DNA of 10,855 nt from a virus. Taxonomy: Duplodnaviria; Heunggongvirae; Uroviricota; Caudoviricetes. A program made the translations under genes and the position numbers. The stretch's first letter is position 1. Every line of letters starts with the position of its first letter. Location of the stretch: the IMG/VR virus record IMGVR_UViG_2537561727_000012. The stretch is one strand, 5' to 3'. Positions 1-10,855 of the stretch are shown here, piece by piece. Below the pieces are notes generated by a model, which made no database searches, had not been told where the DNA came from, and saw only the letters and a program-made list of their open reading frames with translations.

Positions 1-483
1 ATGACGAAGAAAAAAGCACATAAACCTGGTTCAGCGACCATCGCGCTTAACAAGCGCGCCCGTCACGAATACTTTATCGAAGAAGAGTTCGAAGCGGGAC
101 TTGCCCTGCAAGGCTGGGAAGTTAAATCCCTGCGCGCAGGAAAAGCCAATATCAGCGACAGCTACGTCCTTCTGCGTGACGGAGAGGCATTTCTGTTTGG
201 CGCTAACATCACGCCAATGGCCGTGGCCTCCACGCATGTGGTGTGCGATCCTACCCGTACCCGCAAGTTACTTCTCAACCAGCGCGAACTGGACTCATTG
301 TACGGTCGCGTCAATCGAGAAGGCTATACCGTAGTGGCGCTCTCCCTGTACTGGAAAAATGCCTGGTGCAAAGTGAAAATCGGCGTCGCCAAAGGTAAGA
401 AACAGCACGATAAACGTTCAGATATCAAAGAGCGCGAATGGCAGGTGGATAAAGCACGTATCATGAAAAACGCCCACCGTTAA
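1..483 (+). CDS. smpB: SsrA-binding protein SmpB (trans-translation cofactor)
   Basis: 160-aa ORF whose translation ([30 protein letters not shown]...) I recognise as enterobacterial SmpB; it lies directly upstream of the tmRNA gene, the conserved smpB-ssrA arrangement. Confidence 0.95.
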
Positions 484-697: not shown

Positions 698-1060
698 GGG
701 GCTGATTCTGGATTCGACGGGATTTGCGAAACCCAAGGTGCATGCCGAGGGGCGGTTGGCCTCGTAAAAAGCCGCAAAAAATAGTCGCAAACGACGAAAA
801 CTACGCTTTAGCAGCTTAATAACCTGCTTAGAGCCCTCTCTCCCTAGCCTCCGCTCTTAGGACGGGGATCAAGAGAGGTCAAACCCAAAAGAGATCGCGT
901 GGAAGCCCTGCCTGGGGTTGAAGCGTTAAAACTTAATCAGGCTAGTTTGTTAGTGGCGTGTCCGTCCGCAGCTGGCAAGCGAATGTAAAGACTGACTAAG
1001 CATGTAGTACCGAGGATGTAGGAATTTCGGACGCGGGTTCAACTCCCGCCAGCTCCACCA
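698..1060 (+). ncRNA. ssrA: tmRNA (transfer-messenger RNA, 363 nt)
   Basis: Starts GGGGCTGATTCTGGATTCGACGG and ends GGGTTCAACTCCCGCCAGCTCCACCA (tRNA-like acceptor/T-arm with encoded CCA). An internal tag reading frame at 787..819 (gca aac gac gaa aac tac gct tta gca gct taa) encodes ANDENYALAA-stop, the enterobacterial degradation tag. Confidence 0.93.
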
Positions 1061-1070
1061 AATAAATCAA

Positions 1071-1100
1071 GGGGTTACGTGAAAGCGTAGCCCCTTTTTC
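1071..1100 (+). terminator. Intrinsic terminator downstream of ssrA
   Basis: GGGGTTACG (1071..1079), loop TGAAAG, CGTAGCCCC (1086..1094): a 9-bp stem with one G-U pair, followed by TTTTTCTTT. Confidence 0.55.
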
Positions 1101-1118
1101 TTTGGTAGTGGCGGCAAA

Positions 1119-1157
1119 ATGGCGACAGACTTTTGCGTCCATCTTGCCTGTCGCCAT
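1119..1157. repeat. Perfect 10-bp inverted repeat ATGGCGACAG-N19-CTGTCGCCAT upstream of the cargo gene
   Basis: Arms at 1119..1128 and 1148..1157 are exact reverse complements. It sits 27 nt upstream of the ATG at 1184 and just upstream of its Shine-Dalgarno sequence. Candidate operator or 5'-UTR stem-loop. Confidence 0.5.
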
Positions 1158-1183
1158 CTTGAAATCATGCAAAGAGGTTTCAC

Positions 1184-1666
1184 ATGGAAGAACTTCACTT
1201 TGTTTACATCAATGCAAATGGTCGTATCGGTGTTCACTCTATACAGAGCATCAGTTATAGCGAAAATCATATACAGGGCATTTGTAAGAACACCGATCGA
1301 ATAAAAACCTTCCGAAAAGACCGCATTCTTAAACAGTACGATTCACCAGAACAAGCCATTCAGGAATGCGCGTCATTCCTCCCCGAAAGCTACTCACATC
1401 TCACTAAGCAGTCTGGTCCGAAAAAAAATACATTCGATGTGTGTTTCACCGGATTTAAGAAAGCAGATAAAGAAAGATTGGTTGATAAGGCGAATGAACA
1501 AGGATTAACGGTAAGAACCTCTGTAACCCAAAGCCTTCAGATGCTCTGTTGCGGTTACAATGCAGGCCCATCAAAAGTATCTGCAGCCAGGATGAAAGGC
1601 ACAATCATCATAGATGAGCCTGGCTTTATACATTTTCTTGAAACGGGTGAGATCCCAGATGAATAA
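1184..1666 (+). CDS. Hypothetical cargo protein: N-terminal WYL-like domain fused to C-terminal BRCT-like domain
   Basis: 160-aa ORF with a good Shine-Dalgarno (AAAGAGG, 1171..1177) 6 nt before the ATG. Residues ~5-50 (FVYINANGRIGVHSIQSISYSENHIQGICKNTDRIKTFRKDRI) match the WYL-domain pattern ending in R-x-F-R-x-D-R-I. Residues ~84-155 (FDVCFTGFKKADKERLVDKANEQGLTVRTSVTQSLQMLCCGYNAGPSKVSAARMKGTIIIDEPGFIHFL) align by eye to the C-terminal BRCT domain of NAD-dependent DNA ligase LigA. The gene is visibly more AT-rich than its flanks. Domain calls are from memory, not a search. Confidence 0.6.
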   Translation: MEELHFVYINANGRIGVHSIQSISYSENHIQGICKNTDRIKTFRKDRILKQYDSPEQAIQECASFLPESYSHLTKQSGPKKNTFDVCFTGFKKADKERLVDKANEQGLTVRTSVTQSLQMLCCGYNAGPSKVSAARMKGTIIIDEPGFIHFLETGEIPDE

Positions 1667-3080: not shown

Positions 3081-3562
3081 GACAGCAGCCCTCCCACCGT
3101 TTTACTGATATCGCTTAAGGCAGACGTTGCCGTGTCCTGCAGATTATTCAGTTGCGCACTGAGATCACCGAACATATCGGACAGGGATTCATCCACTCGT
3201 TTGAGCGACAGGGTGAACTCAATCCGGCGCGGCATACCGTCGCGGAAAAACTCCGTTTTAGTCTGATTAAGTCCCTCAATCACATACATGCCGTAAATCG
3301 TGCCGCTGCCTTCAATCAGGGGCCATGCTTTCCCCTGTTCTGCCATCTGCTCCAGTGCCAGCAACGACAGCCTGCCGCCTGTTATCTCCGGCATAAGAAC
3401 ACCGGAAAGCGTCAGCATGTCGTTTTCCGGTCCCAGAAACTGCGTGGACGGACGTCGGTTTACCCGACTGTTTGCCGCATGTCGCCAGCTGCGTTGATAC
3501 TGCAGTTCCTGATACGGAACGGTGCGCAGCATAAACACGTACAATCCCAGCACCATCATCAT
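3077..3562 (-). CDS. U: Phage tail protein U (gpU family)
   Basis: 161-aa ORF (MMMVLGLYVFMLRTVPYQELQYQRSWRH...) in the P2 position between T and D. The first ATG overlaps the T stop (ATGA); the true start may be the second or third Met. Confidence 0.85.
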   Translation of the reverse strand: MMMVLGLYVFMLRTVPYQELQYQRSWRHAANSRVNRRPSTQFLGPENDMLTLSGVLMPEITGGRLSLLALEQMAEQGKAWPLIEGSGTIYGMYVIEGLNQTKTEFFRDGMPRRIEFTLSLKRVDESLSDMFGDLSAQLNNLQDTATSALSDISKTVGGLLS

Positions 3563-6500
3563 GCGTCGTATCCCCCCTGATCGCTGTAGTTACTCCTGGC
3601 TTTTGCCTTCAGCCTGCGTTCACGTTCATCAAGCTGGCGTGCCACCTCCCGCGCAATATCCTGCGCACTTTGTCCTGGCTGCGTCTGGATGATGATCTGC
3701 GTCGGTGCCTCAATCCGGTAAACGGGCGGCACAGTGGCTGCGCGACTCACCATCGCTTCACCGCCTTTCGCGGGAAGCGCCACAGGATGCAACGGTGGAA
3801 GCTCTGCTGGCGCGGCAGCAACGCCCATCATTCCGGCAACAACGGCAGCTAGTGCAGCTGTATTTCTCCGGCTGGTCACATTTGCCGGGCCGTTAACAAT
3901 TTCCGGCCCGTTTTCACCGACGATGCCAAACTGCCCGCGCGGGATATAGCCGCCGCTGTCATACATCCCCGCAAAGCCATATCCCCATGACGGAAAACCA
4001 CCCGATGGCATCATCACTTTACCGTCTGCATTCACCGTCGCAGGTTGCTGACGCGTCACGCTTTCCGGCAGTTTCGCCTTTGCAGCCTCTTTACTGACAA
4101 TGCCGAGTTTCTCCAGCAACCAGGAAACGCCGGATTTCAGGGAGTCCAGCGGATGCATGACCATATTCAGCCCTTCCGCCAGTGCCTCCCCGAATCGTCG
4201 CCCCATTGCCGCTGCACTCTGCAGTTCGGCAGAGGTCGACTTAACGGGCGTCAGCAGATCAGTAAACCAGCCCCACAGCGCCTGTACTTTGTCGCCAATC
4301 CACTGAAACACAGGCTTAAGTGGTTCGAATGCAGCACTGATGGGACCTGCCGCCGCTTTGAATCCTTCCACCACGCCGCCGAGAAATGCGGTGATGGGTT
4401 GCCAGTATTTCCAGACAACCAGCGCCACGCCCGCCAGTGCAGTAACCACAAGACCTATCGGACTGAGCAGAGCACCTAACAGACCAGATATGGCATACAG
4501 GGCAACGCGCAGCATCGCCAGCGGACCAGATGCAAGCACACGAAGCACCGCGCCTGCGGCAGCCAGTCCACCGCGCAGTACCGCCAGAGGATTCATAAAC
4601 ATCACAGCAACAGCACGTAAAGCGGATAATCCAGACCGCAATAGTGCAACCGGCGCACCTGCTACAGTTTTCAGGACATTTCCCGTCAGTGATGCCGTAC
4701 GGCGCAAAGACGACAACGGCGCAGTAAGTAAACCCGCTGCGTTACCCGATGAAGCAAGCCCGCGTCGCAGCACTGCCAGTGGAGCGCCAGCCAGCCAGAA
4801 CAACGCGCTGCTGGTTCGTGTTACTGCTGCCGTAACGGAAGGTAACGTTTTGATGCCCAGCACAGAGAATCCCAGACGGATGACTGCCAGCGGCCCCAGC
4901 ACTGCAGCCAGCGCCACAGCCAAGGTGCCGAGGCCTACGGTAACCGCAGCCACAATAGCGGCTACTTTCATCAGTGTGCCCGTCAGTTCCGGGTTAGCTT
5001 CCACCCAGCGACGCAACGCTCCCGTAACGCTTTTCACCGTGTACAGAATATCCATCAGCGGCTGGCGCAGCGTTTCGCCCAGGCTGCTGAAGGTATTCTG
5101 CGCTCCGGTTTTAACCAGCAACCACTGAGCAGAAAGTGAGTCCTTGTTGATGTCGGATTCTTTCTGCATGGAACCGAGCGCATCATTGCCCGCTGTCAGT
5201 TTTAGCTGGCGCTGTAGTTCCGGCAGGTTGTTTGCCAGTTTCGCCGCGTCATCGCCAAACTCTTTACCAAACAACATGGTCATGGCAGACAGACGCTTGT
5301 CCTGCGGCAGTGCGTTCACCTTCTCCAGCACACGCTGGATAGTTCCCATCGCATCCTTCGTCATCTGCTTTTCAATCACTTCAGGATTGAGTTTCAGCAG
5401 ATTCATCCCTTCAAAGAAACTCTTGCTTTGCATGGTGGCAATGGACAATTCACGCACCATCGCGTTTGCTGCACTGGCAGCAACCTCCGGCGCAGCACCC
5501 AGAGTCAGGAAGGTGGACCCCAGCGCCGCCGCTTTACGATAATCCAGACGGTCAGCCACACCGCCCAGACGTTGCATCACATCGATGATGTCCGCCCCTT
5601 TCGACATGGCGTTATCATCCAGATAGTTCAGCGCATCACCGAGCTGTTCAATATTGCGGGTAGGTATTTTGTAGAGCTGGGCGATTTTCCCCAGACTTTC
5701 TGACAGTTCATCCGCTGGCAGCTCAAAGGCTGTTGCCGCCTTTGCCGCCGTACTGGCGAAGGCCAGCAGGTCACGTTTCTGGTCTTCCCAGCTGTCGTCA
5801 GGGTTTGCGACGTTCATACGCGCACCACCTTCAACCAGTGCAGCGAAGTCCACCGCACCGTTTTCCATCGGCAACTGTTCGCTGGCAGCCTTGATGGCAT
5901 CCTGCATTTCATAAAAACGTGCAGTACGGTTTCCATTATCGTCACGCAGACCATTGACCTGCTTTGCCACACCTTTCATGGCATCTTCTATGCTGGTATA
6001 GCTTTTTACTGCCGCCATCACTGGCGTCCCCATTGCCAACCCTGCAGCCGTGGTAGTGGCTCCGGCTCCTGCAATACGATCGCGCACCTCCAGCGAACGG
6101 GCATAACTGGCACGCGCCGCATTCATCCTGCGCTGAGCTTCCCCCAGTCGCTTCAGCCGCGCCTCCTGTTTCCACAGTTCCTGGTTATAACGTGATGTTT
6201 CACGGGCTAAACGGGCAGTTGCTCCCGCATCATCTTTCGCAGAAATTCCCGCCCGGTACAGTTCTGCACGCACAAGCGCCGTTTGCTTCTGCAAATATTT
6301 TTGTTGTTCTTCCAGGCGTTGGACTGCCAGCGTTTGCCGACCTAAAGCCACAAGGTGCCGTTGTGATGGTTGTTCCATCGCCTCCAGCTCAGAGCTAAGC
6401 AAATTAGCCTTCTGTCTGGCATAGTTCAGCCTGTCGCCTAACTTCTTGTTATCGGCCTGCAGCTTGCGAAATTTTTCCAGGCTGTTACCCACCTGATTGA

Positions 6501-6636
6501 GTTGCTTTAATGCGTCACGGGAGTTTCTGATTGCGCCAGCCAGCTCTTTCGAACTGGCCTGTGCAGCACGGAATGGGCGGGTGAGTTTGTCAACCGCATT
6601 AAGAATGACCTGCAGGCGCAGGTTGTTATCACTCAT
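3559..6636 (-). CDS. T: Tail tape measure protein (gpT family)
   Basis: 1025-aa ORF with N-terminal coiled-coil-like segments and a central Ala/Gly/Leu-rich hydrophobic repeat region, in the P2 position after E/E'. Start MSDNNLRLQ overlaps the E' stop. Confidence 0.9.
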   Translation of the reverse strand: MSDNNLRLQVILNAVDKLTRPFRAAQASSKELAGAIRNSRDALKQLNQVGNSLEKFRKLQADNKKLGDRLNYARQKANLLSSELEAMEQPSQRHLVALGRQTLAVQRLEEQQKYLQKQTALVRAELYRAGISAKDDAGATARLARETSRYNQELWKQEARLKRLGEAQRRMNAARASYARSLEVRDRIAGAGATTTAAGLAMGTPVMAAVKSYTSIEDAMKGVAKQVNGLRDDNGNRTARFYEMQDAIKAASEQLPMENGAVDFAALVEGGARMNVANPDDSWEDQKRDLLAFASTAAKAATAFELPADELSESLGKIAQLYKIPTRNIEQLGDALNYLDDNAMSKGADIIDVMQRLGGVADRLDYRKAAALGSTFLTLGAAPEVAASAANAMVRELSIATMQSKSFFEGMNLLKLNPEVIEKQMTKDAMGTIQRVLEKVNALPQDKRLSAMTMLFGKEFGDDAAKLANNLPELQRQLKLTAGNDALGSMQKESDINKDSLSAQWLLVKTGAQNTFSSLGETLRQPLMDILYTVKSVTGALRRWVEANPELTGTLMKVAAIVAAVTVGLGTLAVALAAVLGPLAVIRLGFSVLGIKTLPSVTAAVTRTSSALFWLAGAPLAVLRRGLASSGNAAGLLTAPLSSLRRTASLTGNVLKTVAGAPVALLRSGLSALRAVAVMFMNPLAVLRGGLAAAGAVLRVLASGPLAMLRVALYAISGLLGALLSPIGLVVTALAGVALVVWKYWQPITAFLGGVVEGFKAAAGPISAAFEPLKPVFQWIGDKVQALWGWFTDLLTPVKSTSAELQSAAAMGRRFGEALAEGLNMVMHPLDSLKSGVSWLLEKLGIVSKEAAKAKLPESVTRQQPATVNADGKVMMPSGGFPSWGYGFAGMYDSGGYIPRGQFGIVGENGPEIVNGPANVTSRRNTAALAAVVAGMMGVAAAPAELPPLHPVALPAKGGEAMVSRAATVPPVYRIEAPTQIIIQTQPGQSAQDIAREVARQLDERERRLKAKARSNYSDQGGYDA

Positions 6637-7065
6637 CGTTGGCCCCGCTTCTCTGAATCGCTTTATACCGCCATTCCAGCACTTCGGTCAGCGGCATAAC
6701 GTCAGTAACGGATGGCGGCCAGTGAAAAATGGTGGCGATATCTGCCACCAGATCGTCAACCGTCAGGCTGTCGGTAAACCGGCAAGCACCGACTTCTTCA
6801 ACAAAAAAGTGACAACCTCAACCGACATGGCAGTGAGATCTGCCGGGTCCATCTCTGCAATTTCCTGTGCAGTCAGTGCCGGGCTGGAGATGCGGGGGAT
6901 CACGGTCATCATCGCGTTCACATCCATATCCATAATCGCCTGCAGGCGTGTACCGCGCAGCGCACCGGACTGCGGTTTACGCAGCACAATTTCGGTGATT
7001 TCTGTTTTACCGCGCTTGATGGGGGTATCCAGTTGAATGGTCTTTTCAGTCTGCTTATCGCTCAT
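6629..7065 (-). CDS. E+E' frameshifted tail assembly chaperone (predicted -1 frameshift product)
   Basis: Shifting -1 at the heptamer extends E by about 57 residues (VEEVGACRFTDSLTVDDLVADIATIFHWPPSVTDVMPLTEVLEWRYKAIQRSGANDE). The extension's stop overlaps the T start codon, matching the P2 E/E'/T arrangement. Confidence 0.6.
6763..7065 (-). CDS. E: Tail assembly chaperone E (gpE family), zero-frame product
   Basis: 100-aa ORF immediately upstream of T. It contains the slippery heptamer T-TTT-TTG near its 3' end, as in the P2 E / E+E' pair. Confidence 0.8.
   Translation of the reverse strand: MSDKQTEKTIQLDTPIKRGKTEITEIVLRKPQSGALRGTRLQAIMDMDVNAMMTVIPRISSPALTAQEIAEMDPADLTAMSVEVVTFLLKKSVLAGLPTA
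6802..6808 (-). other. Programmed -1 ribosomal frameshift site (slippery heptamer TTTTTTG)
   Basis: Minus-strand sequence ACT TTT TTG in the E frame (plus-strand CAAAAAA, 6802..6808). The -1 frame stays open from here to a TGA at 6629..6631. Confidence 0.6.
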
Positions 7066-7119
7066 TTTGCTGTCCTGTAAATTGGGTTCTGGCGCGGTAT
7101 CCCGCGCCGTTCAGATATA

Positions 7120-7635
7120 TCAGAGGCCGAGGGCGTTGCGGTGCGCTTCCATCAGGTCCACACCGTCCACAATTTCCACCATGTTGATAAGGTCCACTTC
7201 ATAGAGCACCTCACCATTGATGGTCAGCTTCGCGTAGCTGTTGGTACTGGTCACTTTGGTGGTGTTGCTTTCGCCCGTCTTCCACTCGCCGGAATCCACT
7301 TCTTTGTGACGTCCACGCACCACAAGCTCCACGGCCTGCACTTCTCCGGTATCGTCACGCTGGATAGAGCCGGTAAAGCGCAACTGGATGCCATCCACAG
7401 TGGCTTTGCCCATCTGCTTAAACAGCAGCAGTTCAGTACCACCAATGGAAAATTCTGTGTCCAGAGCACTGTCATCAAGCCCCAGATCCACATCCACCGC
7501 CCCCGGCATTCCGCCGCCGCGATACTTCTCATATTTGCGGGTGAATTTCGGCAGCGTCAGCGACTCTACGATCCCCTGCCAGTTGTTCCCGTCGTTAAAC
7601 AGGTTCAGATGTTTTAATTTGCGTGGTAAAGCCAT
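7120..7635 (-). CDS. FII: Contractile tail tube protein (gpFII family)
   Basis: 171-aa ORF (MALPRKLKHLNLFNDGNNWQG...) immediately downstream of the sheath gene, in P2 order. Confidence 0.9.
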   Translation of the reverse strand: MALPRKLKHLNLFNDGNNWQGIVESLTLPKFTRKYEKYRGGGMPGAVDVDLGLDDSALDTEFSIGGTELLLFKQMGKATVDGIQLRFTGSIQRDDTGEVQAVELVVRGRHKEVDSGEWKTGESNTTKVTSTNSYAKLTINGEVLYEVDLINMVEIVDGVDLMEAHRNALGL

Positions 7636-7644
7636 GTTGTCCCC

Positions 7645-8817
7645 TTACGCGCTGACCTGGCTGGCAAAATTCACCAGGTACTGATCGGTGATGCGCTGGC
7701 GCAGCATCAGATTTTCAAGTGGCGGCACTGGCGTGTAGTCATAGTCGATGGTGAGTTTTCCGGCTTTCAACGTGTCTTTGTCGTTCACCGACTCATCCAG
7801 CCAGCAATCACCACCAATGAGATACCCCTGACTGACCAGGCTGCGCATTTTGGCGCGGATACCTTCGATAATGTCGCGAGCCAGCGACGGATTCAGCGGT
7901 TTGTCCACCGCCCACATGTGCGCTTCTGCCATCGTGTCCGTCAGTACCTGCGCGGTTCGGGTGTAGTTTTCGAAGGCAAAGAGCGGGTCATCACTCAGAC
8001 AGCGGGAACCCCAGAAGCGGAAACCGTCTTTGCGGATAAGCGTGGTAACGTCGTTCTGGTTAAGCAGACCTGCATCGGTTGCCGGGTCCTGCAGATCCCA
8101 GAACACATCAGCAGAAATTCCGGTGACACCGTTCACGCCCACGTTGGACAGGCTTTTGTGCCATCCGGTCTGCTCATCAATTTTGGCGCGCAGACCGAGC
8201 GCACGAGCAGTGGCATATGCCGTTGCTTCGGCATTCAGCACCGTGTCCCAGCCCGTAAAGTCAGGCCAGATCAGCATCCCTTCGCGCTGGCTGAAGTTTT
8301 CACGGTAAGTGATCGCCTCCTGTACCGTCTTGCAGCCATACGCTGACAGGTAAGCAAACCCACGCAGGCTTTGCGCCACGCTCAGCAACTCAGTCGCAAC
8401 GGCTTTGTTATCGTGGCCTGGCACGCCGAGAATGCGCGGTTTAACGCCGAGCTGTGTCTGGGCAGATAACAGGGCTTTCATGCCTGTTTTTTTACCTTCA
8501 GCAGTCACTGCGCCGATGATATTGGTCGTGGTTTCTTCTTCCGTTTCACCCTGCGGCACACGCACAACAACGGTCACGGGTTTTGCCTGGTCAGCGATGG
8601 CATCCAGCGAACGGGCCAGCGTGCCGGACTCACCCGCTTTACCGCTGGCAGTCAGCACATCAGTGATCAGCACGGGTTTATTAAGAGGAAACATTTTTGC
8701 ATCGGCATCATCGCCCGTGCAGACCATACCCACGATGGCGGTGCTCACCGTGGTAATGGATCGGGTGCCTTCGTTGATTTCAACAACGCGCACCCCGTGG
8801 TGGTAATCCTGAGCCAT
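7645..8817 (-). CDS. FI: Contractile tail sheath protein (gpFI family)
   Basis: 390-aa ORF ([25 protein letters not shown]...) with an AGGAGG Shine-Dalgarno 8-13 nt upstream of the ATG; first gene of the FI-FII-E-T-U-D block. Confidence 0.9.
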
Positions 8818-8959: not shown

Positions 8960-9526
8960 TCAGGGGGATTCACTGCTCTTATTTGCCGGAAATTTTCTAT
9001 AAATGGTAGAAACGCCCACATCAAAAATCAGTGCAATACGCTGTCTTGATTCTCCGGCCTCTAGTAAACGTCCAATCTGTGCCCACTGTTCGGTGGTCAA
9101 CTTAGGACGGCGTCCACCTACTCTGCCTTTGTCGCGAGCTGCAGCAATCCCCGCTCTGGTACGTTCAACTATCAGTTCGCGTTCCATTTCAGCCAGGGCA
9201 CCCATGACATGAAAAAAGAAACGGCCCATTGGGGTACTGGTATCAATACTGTCAGTCAGGCTTCGGAAATTCACGCCACGCTGGCGCAACTCTTCTATCA
9301 GCGTAACAAGATGCCGCATACTGCGTCCCAACCTGTCCAGCTTCCAGACAACCAGCGTGTCTCCTGCCGATAGTGTCCTGAGTAGTTTTTTCAGCCCCGG
9401 TCTGTCGGACTTAGTGCCACTGATTTTGTCCTCAAAAATCCGCTCACATCCCGCGCAGTTCAGTGCATTACGTTGCAAATCGGTGTTCTGGTCATTTGTT
9501 GACACGCGTACATAGCCAATAAGCAT
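8960..9526 (-). CDS. Serine DNA invertase (Hin/Gin/Pin/Cin family)
   Basis: Translation from the third Met (MLIGYVRVSTNDQNTDLQRNAL...GDTLVVWKLDRLGRSM...C-terminal HTH) closely resembles e14 Pin and Mu Gin, with the catalytic Ser in YVRVSTNDQ. The ORF-track start at 9532 adds MI; the 9526 ATG has the better Shine-Dalgarno spacing. Confidence 0.9.
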   Translation of the reverse strand: MLIGYVRVSTNDQNTDLQRNALNCAGCERIFEDKISGTKSDRPGLKKLLRTLSAGDTLVVWKLDRLGRSMRHLVTLIEELRQRGVNFRSLTDSIDTSTPMGRFFFHVMGALAEMERELIVERTRAGIAAARDKGRVGGRRPKLTTEQWAQIGRLLEAGESRQRIALIFDVGVSTIYRKFPANKSSESP

Positions 9527-9553
9527 GATCATTCCCCTGAATAAAAACCGGAG

Positions 9554-10087
9554 ATGATGCCAGTTAGCTGTTACCTCTGCATTTTCTTAAACGTTGGTTT
9601 GGGAGAAGGCTCTGCATTACCTGTTGGTGTGCCTGTTCCGTGGCCTTCCGCCACTCCGCCGACAGGCTGGCTGAAATGCAATGGTGCGGCTTTTTCTGCT
9701 GAAGAATACCCGGAACTGGCAAAGGCTTACCCGACAAATAAATTGCCTGATTTACGCGGTGAGTTTATTCGTGGCTGGGATGACGGACGTGGAGTGGATA
9801 ACGGAAGGGGATTATTAACGCTTCAGGACGGTGCGATTGTCAGTCATAACCACTATTGGGGAATCTGGACTTCACGAACTAACGACCAGACTCTGGAAAG
9901 TTTTACAGGCACCACGATTTTAAAACAAATCACGCCCCTGTCTCCGGCCATTGACTTCGATAATTACCCAATTCCCAACCCGGCTATTACAGAGGGTGGT
10001 GTTGTTGCGGCAACGACTAAACCTGCAGGTGCGAATGAAACACGCCCACGAAATGTCGCTTTTAACTATATTGTGAGGGCTGCATAA
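9554..10087 (+). CDS. Tail-fibre C-terminal variable segment, alternative (currently silent) cassette
   Basis: The translation (…PVGVPVPWPSATPPTGWLKCNGAAFSAEEYPELAKAYPTNKLPDLRGEFIRGWDDGRGVDNGRGLL…RPRNVAFNYIVRAA) is typical of the receptor-binding C-terminus of Mu S / P2 H-type fibres. It is on the opposite strand to the late operon and has no constant N-terminal part, so the first ~18 codons of the ORF (spanning the crossover site) are probably not native. It would be fused to the constant part after inversion. Confidence 0.7.
   Translation: MMPVSCYLCIFLNVGLGEGSALPVGVPVPWPSATPPTGWLKCNGAAFSAEEYPELAKAYPTNKLPDLRGEFIRGWDDGRGVDNGRGLLTLQDGAIVSHNHYWGIWTSRTNDQTLESFTGTTILKQITPLSPAIDFDNYPIPNPAITEGGVVAATTKPAGANETRPRNVAFNYIVRAA
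9582..9607. other. Candidate invertase crossover site (hix/gix/pix-like 26-bp imperfect palindrome)
   Basis: TTTTCTTAAACG-TT-GGTTTGGGAGAA has the AAAC(C)-nn-GGTTT centre of Din-family sites. It lies between the invertase start and the beginning of the fibre variable segment, the position gixR occupies in Mu. Confidence 0.4.
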
Positions 10088-10689
10088 TGAATAACGCAGA
10101 ATTAAACAGTGAATTAATTGCCACTATGGCAGGAGAAATTACTGTTTATAACTTTGATGTCATGAGTCGGGAATATATTTCAGCTTCAACTGAATATCTT
10201 GCTATTGGTGTCGGCATTCCGGCATATTCCTGTTTAGATGCCCCAGGCGCATACAAAGCTGGTTATGCAATCTGCCGATCTGCAGATTTTAACTCATGGG
10301 AATATGTGCCAGACCATCGCGGTGAAATCGTCTTTAGCACCGAAACAGGAGAATCAAAAGAAATCACAGCTCCGGGTGATTACCCTGATAATACAACCAC
10401 TATCGCCCCGTTAACGCCATACGATAAATGGGATGGTGAGAAATGGGTGACAGATACTGAGGCACAGCATAATGCCGCAGTAGACGCGGCAGAAGCACTG
10501 CGCCAGTCACTTATTGATGCAGCAATGGCTTCCATTAGTCTGATTCAACTGAAACTACAGGCCGGACGGAAGCTGACGCAGGCAGAAACCACCCGACTTA
10601 ACGCTGTGCTGGATTACATTGACGCGGTGACGGCAACAGATACCAGCACCGCGCCGGATGTCATCTGGCCTGAACTGCCGGAGGCGTAG
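10087..10689 (+). CDS. Tail fibre assembly protein (Tfa / Mu U / P2 G family), alternative cassette
   Basis: 200-aa ORF whose ATG overlaps the stop of the fibre segment (TAATG). The conserved N-terminal part and variable C-terminus are typical of tail-fibre assembly chaperones. Confidence 0.85.
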   Translation: MNNAELNSELIATMAGEITVYNFDVMSREYISASTEYLAIGVGIPAYSCLDAPGAYKAGYAICRSADFNSWEYVPDHRGEIVFSTETGESKEITAPGDYPDNTTTIAPLTPYDKWDGEKWVTDTEAQHNAAVDAAEALRQSLIDAAMASISLIQLKLQAGRKLTQAETTRLNAVLDYIDAVTATDTSTAPDVIWPELPEA

Positions 10690-10855
10690 GCCATTCAATA
10701 TCTGGCGCACTGGAGGAATCAACCAGTTCCAGTGCGTCCAGATAATCCAGCCACAAATTATATTGCGCCAGTTCATCATCTTTCAGACGACCAATAGCGG
10801 CTTTACCGGGCCATTGCTTACTGTTCATGTATTCGTTGGCCTGGTTAATTAGTAG
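10661..10855 (-). CDS. Tail fibre assembly protein, second copy in opposite orientation (3' part only; 5' end beyond window)
   Basis: The minus-strand frame reads …LLINQANEYMNSKQWPGKAAIGRLKDDELAQYNLWLDYLDALELVDSSSAPDIEWPTPPAVQAR-stop, a characteristic Tfa C-terminus. It converges on the plus-strand tfa and overlaps its 3' end by 29 nt (10661..10689), as for U/U' at the centre of the Mu G segment. Confidence 0.7.
   Translation of the reverse strand, partial: LLINQANEYMNSKQWPGKAAIGRLKDDELAQYNLWLDYLDALELVDSSSAPDIEWPTPPAVQAR

What the first reader, a model, noticed from the sequence alone, without database searches (positions are those of the whole stretch)
6629..6808. P2-type programmed -1 frameshift (TTTTTTG) producing an E+E' chaperone whose stop overlaps the tape-measure start
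The E ORF contains the canonical slippery heptamer T-TTT-TTG 14 codons before its stop. The -1 frame then runs open for about 57 codons and ends in a TGA interlocked with the T start (GATGAGTGA). This conserved two-chaperone arrangement is what ORF callers routinely miss; the 127-nt apparent gap between E and T is in fact coding.
Basis: partly seen in the sequence, partly recalled or inferred. Interest (0 to 1): 0.4.

Follow-up and report, generated by a model that had tools for sequence, protein, structure and literature searches.

The report
P2-type tail chaperone frameshift (E/E+E')
This is the well-known programmed -1 ribosomal frameshift that lets P2-like phages make two tail-assembly chaperones from one gene, here in a P2-like prophage of E. 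coli; the reading is correct but ordinary.

Summary
Gene E (7065..6763, 100 aa, Pfam Phage_TAC_7) has one in-frame slippery heptamer, T_TTT_TTG, at 6808..6802. Its TTT codon is 14 codons before the E stop. From 6802 the -1 frame stays open for 57 codons to a TGA at 6631..6629, which overlaps the tape-measure ATG (6636) by 8 nt. The 57-residue extension matches Pfam Phage_P2_GpE (E = 2.9e-18). The fused 145-aa protein aligns without gaps across the junction to P2 E+E' (49% identity, E = 4e-51). The P2 reference record annotates E+E' as a -1 frameshift product, with the same heptamer, extension length and stop/start interlock. All 71 relatives recovered from diverse Proteobacteria, analysed with the window itself, keep an in-frame TTTTTTN and a 53-71-codon -1 extension carrying the ADIATIFHW motif. 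Gene order is sheath, tube, E/E', tape measure, U, D, ogr, in a prophage next to smpB-ssrA that is widespread in E. coli. RefSeq and phage records of near-identical copies call E' a separate 39-aa GTG ORF, which is a routine mis-annotation. I found no convincing RNA stimulator. Verdict: already known, low interest.

The parts
7120..7635 (-). Tail tube gene (P2 FII homologue), immediately upstream of E
   Evidence: Pfam PF04985 Phage_tube, E = 8.8e-60. RefSeq calls it 'phage major tail tube protein'.
6763..7065 (-). Gene E: zero-frame tail assembly chaperone, 100 aa
   Evidence: Pfam PF10109 Phage_TAC_7, E = 1e-18. PHROG 103, 4.4e-44. Translation.
6802..6808 (-). Slippery heptamer T_TTT_TTG (E codons 87-88 plus the last base of codon 86); site of the -1 shift
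   Evidence: Register read. It is the only in-frame XXXYYYZ in E. It is identical to the annotated P2 site. An in-frame TTTTTTN is kept in all 71 related loci.
6629..6802 (-). E' : -1 frame extension of 57 codons plus TGA (VEEVGACRF...RSGANDE*)
   Evidence: Translation. Pfam PF06528 Phage_P2_GpE, E = 2.9e-18. PHROG 1756 covers residues 3-57. Variability by codon position in this frame downstream of the E stop is 0.031 / 0.004 / 0.279.
6629..7065 (-). Composite E+E' coding region (145-aa fusion: residues 1-88 from frame 0, 89-145 from frame -1)
   Evidence: Ungapped 139-residue BLASTP alignment to P2 E+E', 49% identity, E = 4e-51. tblastn finds the fusion as two frame-shifted pieces covering at least 80% of the query in 386 phage records.
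6629..6636 (-). 8-nt overlap of the E+E' stop (TGA 6631..6629) with the tape-measure start (ATG 6636..6634)
   Evidence: Read. The same 8-nt overlap is the commonest geometry among relatives and is present in P2.
3559..6636 (-). Tape measure gene (P2 T homologue), 1025 aa
   Evidence: Pfam PF10145 PhageMin_Tail, E = 1.9e-18. RefSeq calls it 'phage tail tape measure protein'.
6813..6819 (-). Weak Shine-Dalgarno-like GAGGTTG, 4 nt 5' of the heptamer (GAGGTGG in most relatives); possible but unproven modulator
   Evidence: Anti-SD pairing peaks at -12 in 54 of 73 distinct loci. In the window it is no stronger than a synonymous-codon null: -6.8 against -6.78 kcal/mol.
6730..6750 (-). 7-bp hairpin TGGTGGCAGATATCGCCACCA followed by TTTTT, inside E', 47 nt 3' of the heptamer by the script's offset; role unknown, probably a by-product of the LVADIATIFHW codons
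   Evidence: Terminator-like scan hit. 97% of cells are paired in the close clade, with one compensatory change. It is absent from P2, 186 and more distant relatives.

Best explanation
This is the E/E+E' tail-assembly-chaperone gene pair of a P2-like (Peduoviridae) prophage, inserted next to ssrA in an E. coli-type chromosome. Most ribosomes translate E in frame and stop at 6763, giving the 100-aa gpE. A minority slip back one base when the P and A sites sit on UUU-UUG (6807..6802), because tRNA-Phe and tRNA-Leu can re-pair on U_UUU_UU. In P2 this minority is reported as 2- to 3-fold above lambda's roughly 1:30. Those ribosomes continue for 57 codons in the -1 frame and stop at a TGA interlocked with the tape-measure start codon, giving a 145-aa gpE+E'. 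By analogy with lambda gpG/gpGT, the shared E part is thought to coat the tape-measure protein. The E' part is thought to recruit the tube protein. The fixed shift frequency would set the ratio of the two chaperones. What is shown here: the sequence anatomy, homology of both parts, conservation of the site, and gene context. What is inferred from P2 and lambda work: that the slip happens, its efficiency, and the chaperone roles.
For: The heptamer is in the correct register, and the open -1 frame is read directly. E matches PF10109 and the extension matches PF06528, E = 2.9e-18. The fusion aligns to P2 E+E' without gaps across the junction: 49% identity, E = 4e-51...VVTFLVEEVGA against ...VVGFLVAELGA. 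The P2 reference record annotates E+E' as a two-part joined CDS with the notes '-1 frameshift; essential tail protein' and 'site of -1 translational frameshift' at the same heptamer. Phage 186 is annotated likewise. All 71 relatives, from Enterobacterales, Pasteurellales, Neisseriales, Burkholderiales and Rhodobacteraceae, keep an in-frame TTTTTT[G/A/T/C] near the E 3' end. They also keep a 53-71-codon -1 ORF carrying ADIATIFHW. The zero-frame tail after the site varies in length (6-19 codons) and in sequence. Codon-position variability downstream of the E stop is 0.031 / 0.004 / 0.279 in the -1 frame. The gene order is sheath, tube, E, T, U, D, ogr. Literature: P2 frameshifts at TTTTTTG to give the 91-aa E and the 142-aa E+E' (PMC3091744). 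E' lacks an RBS and the arrangement is conserved in P2-like phages (PMC3931495). P2 efficiency is 2-3-fold above lambda G-T, and the G/GT chaperone mechanism is described (PMC5009743). All three cite Christie et al. 2002 and Xu et al. 2004.
Against: There is no direct evidence of the fusion protein for this locus. No convincing cis stimulator was found. The hairpin 8 nt downstream is not kept in diverged relatives and is absent from the RNAalifold consensus. The upstream SD-like motif in the window is no stronger than expected from its codons. Within the 12-codon dual-coded stretch, the two frames are about equally conserved. Public annotation treats E' as a separate ORF.
Confidence: 0.93

Rival explanations
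1. E' is an independent 39-aa gene, initiated at GTG 6748 as in RefSeq/PGAP and several phage records, and is not a frameshift extension of E.
For: Near-identical copies are annotated this way: 'GpE family phage tail protein', 120 nt. A GTG lies at 6748..6746. The Pfam PF06528 model covers only the last 37 residues.
Against: No GGAG, GAGG or AGGA lies within 25 nt upstream of the GTG (read). Homology to P2 E+E' and to PHROG 1756 runs upstream of the GTG, right back to the heptamer. At the equivalent codon, 17 of 66 distinct relatives have ATC, ATT, ATA, GTC, CAG or CAA, so no start codon exists there. In P2 the reading frame is reported to lack an RBS and to be made as an extension of E (PMC3931495, PMC3091744, citing Christie 2002).
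Confidence: 0.03
2. The same E+E' fusion is made by transcriptional slippage, not by the ribosome. RNA polymerase adds one extra U on the T6 run, so a minority of mRNAs carry the -1 frame in phase.
For: The site is a homopolymer run. Some relatives have T7 or T8 (for example L008, L035, L045). The protein product would be almost the same, so homology cannot tell the two mechanisms apart.
Against: This rests on established knowledge, not on a test made here. Efficient bacterial transcriptional slippage generally needs runs of about 8-9 or more. Six T's is the commonest state in the family. The run is always kept in the X_XXY_YYZ register with a Phe-Leu or Phe-Phe codon pair, which matters for tRNA re-pairing but not for polymerase slippage.
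Confidence: 0.03
3. The open -1 frame and heptamer are a chance or relic feature in a decayed prophage, and no E+E' is made.
For: TTTTTTG by itself is not over-represented: 2 found, 2.8 expected. By my calculation, a 57-codon open frame has about a 7% chance probability. Whether the prophage is intact cannot be judged from a 10.9-kb window.
Against: Pfam and PHROG hits of 1e-18 to 1e-22 fall on the -1 frame. The third-position variability pattern is strong. All flanking tail genes are intact. The window at 80% coverage or more is present in 162 complete E. coli genomes, at about 96% identity in the ten best hits.
Confidence: 0.01

Closest known systems
Bacteriophage P2 genes E and E+E' (FETUD tail operon; Christie et al. 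2002, cited in PMC3091744, PMC3931495 and PMC5009743; record NC_001895)
   Same: The slippery heptamer TTTTTTG is identical and in the same register near the 3' end of E. The -1 extension has the same length, 57 codons. The 8-nt interlock of the E' stop with the T start is the same. The position between the tube gene and the tape-measure gene is the same. The fusion is 49% identical over 139 ungapped residues.
   Different: E is 100 aa here against 91 aa in P2, with a longer zero-frame tail of 12 against 6 codons after the site. E+E' is 145 aa against 142. The tape measure is 1025 aa here; the P2 T gene spans 2448 nt, about 815 aa. The prophage sits at ssrA. The closest phage records are Klebsiella phage 4LV2017 (Elveevirus, 98%) and Salmonella RE-2010 (Felsduovirus, 86.5% protein identity), not Peduovirus.
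Coliphage 186 gene H (orf51/orf52)
   Same: It is a homologous pair annotated as 'probably produced by a translational frameshift from orf51 into orf52', with the same TTTTTTG and the same overlap with the tape-measure gene G.
   Different: Protein identity is about 43%. The N-terminus of orf51 is longer. 186 lacks the LVADIAT-clade hairpin.
Phage lambda gpG / gpGT tail assembly chaperones (Levin 1993; Xu, Hendrix and Duda 2004, 2013, 2014, as reviewed in PMC5009743)
   Same: The logic and position are the same. Two proteins share an N-terminus and are made by a -1 frameshift near the end of the gene between the major tail gene and the tape-measure gene. The short form binds the tape measure and the extension recruits the tube subunit. 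The ratio is fixed by shift efficiency.
   Different: No sequence similarity was detected. Pfam gives only PF10109 and PF06528 for the window proteins. Lambda uses a different slippery sequence and a lower efficiency, and has a non-contractile tail.
E. coli dnaX gamma/tau -1 frameshift
   Same: It is a tandem -1 slip on an X_XXY_YYZ heptamer in a bacterial system.
   Different: dnaX depends on an upstream Shine-Dalgarno element about 10 nt away and a downstream stem-loop. Here the SD-like motif is only 4 nt upstream and is weak in the window, and no downstream stem-loop is conserved.

Membership tests
P2-type E/E+E' frameshifted tail assembly chaperone pair | The gene lies between the tail tube gene and the tape-measure gene of a contractile-tail (P2-like) module. 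| tested here: met
   The minus-strand order is FI sheath, FII tube, E, T, U, D, ogr, by Pfam and RefSeq annotation.
P2-type E/E+E' frameshifted tail assembly chaperone pair | The upstream ORF is a gpE homologue (Pfam PF10109 Phage_TAC_7). | tested here: met
   E = 1e-18, 67.5 bits against a cut-off of 25. PHROG 103, 4.4e-44.
P2-type E/E+E' frameshifted tail assembly chaperone pair | An in-frame slippery heptamer T_TTT_TTN lies near the 3' end of E. | tested here: met
   T_TTT_TTG at 6808..6802, with the TTT codon 14 codons before the stop. It is the only in-frame XXXYYYZ in E. It is identical to P2.
P2-type E/E+E' frameshifted tail assembly chaperone pair | The -1 frame is open from the slip site and encodes a gpE' homologue (Pfam PF06528 Phage_P2_GpE). 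| tested here: met
   57 codons are open. PF06528 gives E = 2.9e-18, 65.5 bits against a cut-off of 23. The alignment to P2 E+E' is ungapped through the junction.
P2-type E/E+E' frameshifted tail assembly chaperone pair | E' has no translation start signals of its own. | tested here: met
   No SD-like tetramer lies upstream of the only candidate start, GTG 6748. 17 of 66 relatives lack a start codon at that position.
P2-type E/E+E' frameshifted tail assembly chaperone pair | The E' stop overlaps the tape-measure start. | tested here: met
   GATGAGTGA at 6637..6629, with 8 nt of overlap. The same geometry occurs in P2 and in most relatives.
P2-type E/E+E' frameshifted tail assembly chaperone pair | The slip site and extension are conserved across relatives. 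| tested here: met
   All 71 related loci plus the window, and 386 phage records with two-piece tblastn matches.
P2-type E/E+E' frameshifted tail assembly chaperone pair | The fusion protein is actually produced, at a frequency of the order of 10%, and E' is essential for tail assembly. | not testable with these tools
   This is known for P2 only from the literature (PMC3091744, PMC5009743, citing Christie 2002). It needs a reporter assay, MS or genetics on this locus.
Lambda gpG/gpGT family (by sequence) | Sequence homology to lambda gpG or gpT domains. | tested here: not met
   The Pfam scan at E <= 0.01 returns only PF10109 and PF06528. The resemblance is in organisation and presumed function only.
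dnaX-type stimulated -1 frameshift | An upstream SD-like element about 10-14 nt from the heptamer, plus a conserved stem-loop 5-9 nt downstream. | tested here: not met
   The SD-like GAGGTTG is 4 nt upstream and at the synonymous-null level in the window. The candidate hairpin 8 nt downstream breaks in diverged relatives and is absent from the RNAalifold consensus.

The most novel reading that the evidence does not exclude
The family may carry unrecognised cis elements that tune recoding or downstream expression. One candidate is an SD-like GAGGTGG placed only 4 nt 5' of the heptamer in about three-quarters of relatives. On average it is stronger than synonymous-codon expectation: mean -8.7 against -5.2 kcal/mol. 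The other is a clade-specific 7-bp hairpin plus U-run inside E' (6750..6730), built partly from paired synonymous sites, with one compensatory change. It might act as an attenuator before the tape-measure gene or as a distal frameshift modulator.
Probability: 0.1. Interest if true: 0.3.

Novelty: already known. Interest (0 to 1): 0.08.

Why it matters
It matters mainly for annotation. The two-chaperone frameshift is a textbook feature of long-tailed phages and was shown experimentally for P2. This locus adds no new biology. The practical point is that RefSeq/PGAP and several phage records still describe E' as a free-standing 39-aa gene. The true 145-aa E+E' product is therefore missing from the protein records I inspected for this widespread E. 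coli and Klebsiella prophage lineage. Anyone engineering tails or tailocins from this lineage must keep the heptamer and the E'/T overlap intact.

Tried and rejected
1. Downstream RNA stimulator. A 12-bp irregular hairpin starting 8 nt after the heptamer (6793..6762) appears in the 211-nt fold but not in the 90-nt MFE. On 38 relatives it is 80% paired, with 6-16 broken cells per pair at most positions and few double changes. RNAalifold does not predict it. I rejected it as a conserved element.

2. The hairpin at 6750..6730. It is well kept in the close clade, but it is explained largely by the invariant LVADIATIFHW codons. It is absent from P2, 186 and distant relatives. I did not take it as part of the mechanism.

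3. The upstream SD-like motif. The family-wide signal is real. Against a synonymous-codon null, the median percentile is only 0.22, and the window itself sits at 0.54. The loci are also phylogenetically non-independent. The result is inconclusive.

4. Frame discrimination inside the 12-codon dual-coded stretch. Pairwise amino-acid identity is about equal in both frames (0.633 against 0.632), so the test is uninformative. Downstream of the E stop the result is decisive.

5. Solved structures. There is no PDB relative of the fusion at E <= 1.

6. The primary paper (Christie 2002, PMC135442) is not held in the library. Its content is cited only through papers that quote it.

7. I did not run the large protein database searches or structure prediction, because the answer did not depend on them.

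Full report
**Observation**

The genes of interest are on the minus strand. ORF listing gives a 100-aa ORF at 7065..6763 and a 1025-aa ORF at 6636..3559. The 100-aa ORF ends ...VVTFLLKKSVLAGLPTA*. Its codons 86-88 are ACT TTT TTG. This places T_TTT_TTG at 6808..6802 in the X_XXY_YYZ register needed for a tandem -1 slip. It is the only in-frame heptamer of that type in the ORF.

Reading from 6808 in the -1 frame gives FFVEEVGACRFTDSLTVDDLVADIATIFHWPPSVTDVMPLTEVLEWRYKAIQRSGANDE*. That is 57 sense codons after the slip, ending at TGA 6631..6629. The ATG of the long ORF is at 6636..6634, so GATGAGTGA interlocks the two with 8 nt of overlap. The apparently non-coding gap is 126 nt.

By themselves the heptamer and the open frame are not statistically remarkable. 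The heptamer occurs twice in the window against 2.8 expected. By my calculation the open frame has about a 7% chance probability.

**What it is**

Pfam identifies the neighbourhood as a P2-type contractile-tail module:
- sheath, 8817..7645
- tube, 7635..7120 (PF04985, 8.8e-60)
- the 100-aa ORF, as Phage_TAC_7 (PF10109, 1e-18)
- tape measure (PF10145)
- gpU
- gpD
- ogr

The -1 extension matches Pfam Phage_P2_GpE (PF06528, E = 2.9e-18). It also matches PHROG 1756 over residues 3-57, that is almost from the slip site.

I built the predicted fusion, 145 aa, from residues 1-88 in frame 0 followed by 57 residues in frame -1. It aligns to P2 E+E' over 139 residues without a gap, at 49% identity and E = 4e-51. 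The junction reads VVTFL|VEEVGA against VVGFL|VAELGA.

The P2 reference record annotates E+E' as a joined CDS with the notes '-1 frameshift; essential tail protein' and a 'site of -1 translational frameshift' feature. The P2 sequence shows the same TTTTTTG in the same register, a 57-codon extension, and AATGAGTAA at the T start. Phage 186 is annotated in the same sense.

**Conservation**

A tblastn search with the fusion finds it as two frame-shifted pieces, covering at least 80% of the query, in 386 phage records. A scan of one genome per species returned 78 loci. All 71 loci that could be analysed, together with the window itself, have an in-frame TTTTTT[G/A/T/C] 8-21 codons before the E stop. 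They also have a -1 ORF of 53-71 codons carrying the near-invariant ADIATIFHW...WR..A..RS motif, usually ending 8 nt into the tape-measure gene. These loci span Enterobacterales, Pasteurellales, Neisseriales, Burkholderiales and a Rhodobacteraceae MAG.

The zero-frame tail after the site differs in length (6-19 codons) and in sequence. Downstream of the E stop, column variability by -1-frame codon position is 0.031 / 0.004 / 0.279, a clear coding signature.

**Mechanism**

The best explanation is the established one. Ribosomes with tRNA-Phe and tRNA-Leu on UUU-UUG slip back one base and continue in the -1 frame, so a fixed minority of E translations yield E+E'.

The literature held in the library states the following:
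- P2 shifts at TTTTTTG to give a 91-aa E and a 142-aa E+E', and no downstream structure is found in P2 or its Burkholderia relatives (PMC3091744).
- E' lacks a ribosome binding site, and the arrangement is conserved in P2-like phages (PMC3931495).
- P2 efficiency is 2-3-fold above lambda G-T, whose products act as tape-measure chaperones, with the extension recruiting the tube subunit (PMC5009743).

The roles of E and E' here are inferred from those systems. Nothing about protein production was or could be tested here.

**Search for cis stimulators**

A hairpin 8 nt downstream of the heptamer appears in one fold of the window. It is not in the shorter fold, is broken in diverged relatives, and is not in the RNAalifold consensus.

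A second hairpin lies at 6750..6730 and is followed by TTTTT, which makes it look like a terminator. It is kept in the LVADIAT clade with one compensatory change, but it is missing from P2, 186 and distant relatives. The protein motif largely dictates it.

An SD-like GAGGTGG lies 4 nt upstream of the heptamer in 54 of 73 distinct loci. Family-wide it is moderately stronger than a synonymous-codon null. The window's own GAGGTTG is not. None of these is needed for the interpretation. I list them as leads only.

**Rivals**

- Independent initiation of a 39-aa E' at GTG 6748. This is what RefSeq/PGAP and several phage records annotate. It is contradicted by the lack of any SD, by homology running upstream of the GTG to the heptamer, and by 17 of 66 relatives having a non-start codon at that position.
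- Transcriptional slippage on the T run. It cannot be excluded by sequence, but it is unlikely for six T's. It also does not explain the strictly kept codon register.
- A chance or relic ORF. The homology and the codon-position pattern exclude it.

**Context and provenance**

The window starts with smpB and ssrA, so the prophage abuts the tmRNA gene. At least 80% of the window is found in 162 of 5426 complete E. coli genomes, at about 96% identity in the ten best hits. The 701-bp core around the finding is 99% identical to a 37-kb circular E. coli 'plasmid' record. It is 98% identical to Klebsiella phage 4LV2017 (Peduoviridae, Elveevirus).

**Verdict**

This is a known feature in a common prophage lineage: already known, of low interest. 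The only practical consequence is the annotation error described above.

Noticed in passing
window 1..483 (+), 698..1060 (+), about 1060..1180: smpB and the ssrA tmRNA gene (tag ANDENYALAA) lie at the left end, and the P2-like prophage begins right after ssrA. The window therefore contains a prophage/chromosome junction at the tmRNA gene. I did not map the att core repeat.
   Followed up: partly
window 1184..1666 (+): A 160-aa ORF lies between the ssrA junction and ogr, on the strand opposite to the tail genes. It gives a weak Pfam BRCT hit (1e-3), PHROG 2561 'DNA ligase' (2.5e-77) and a C-terminal match to the PADLOC candidate PDC-S48 (1.8e-7). It looks like a prophage-end cargo gene of unknown role, possibly defence-related.
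   Followed up: partly
window 8960..9532 (-), 9581..9606, 9554..10855: A serine recombinase (Resolvase plus HTH_7) sits next to a Hin/Gin-type crossover-like site, TTTTCTTAAACGTTGGTTTGGGAGAA. That site lies inside a tail-fibre C-terminal ORF (Collar domain). A tail-fibre assembly gene follows, and a second, converging one runs in from the window end. This points to an invertible tail-fibre host-range segment. The partner repeat is outside the window.
   Followed up: partly
window 7108..7091 (-): A 7-bp all-GC hairpin (GGCGCGG-GAUA-CCGCGCC; dG -17.4 kcal/mol, z = -3.2) lies in the 54-nt tube-E intergenic spacer, with no U-run after it. It is in the same position as the annotated 'tI partial terminator' of phage 186. 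It may lower expression of E, T, U and D relative to sheath and tube.
   Followed up: partly
window 6750..6730 (-): A terminator-like hairpin plus TTTTT lies inside E', formed by the codons for LVADIATIF. Two of its pairs join synonymous third positions. One relative (L043) has a compensatory GTC/GCG change. It is absent from P2 and 186.
   Followed up: partly
window 6819..6813 (-) and loci L008-L084: A Shine-Dalgarno-like GAGGTGG lies only 4 nt 5' of the slippery heptamer in 54 of 73 distinct relatives. The mean anti-SD pairing is -8.7 kcal/mol against -5.2 for synonymous resampling. The window has the weaker GAGGTTG. Whether it modulates the shift is unknown.
   Followed up: partly
L001 (CP019275.1, 37,446 bp circular 'plasmid p13P477T-2'): The best phage-collection match is a circular 37-kb record deposited as an E. 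coli plasmid, yet it carries the P2-like tail module. It may be an excised or circularised prophage, or a phage-plasmid.
   Followed up: no
window 6629..6748 (-); L001, L002, L005, L086: RefSeq/PGAP and several phage records annotate E' as a free-standing 39-aa GTG ORF ('GpE family phage tail protein'), not as the frameshift fusion. The 145-aa E+E' product is therefore not annotated in any of the records I inspected for this lineage.
   Followed up: yes
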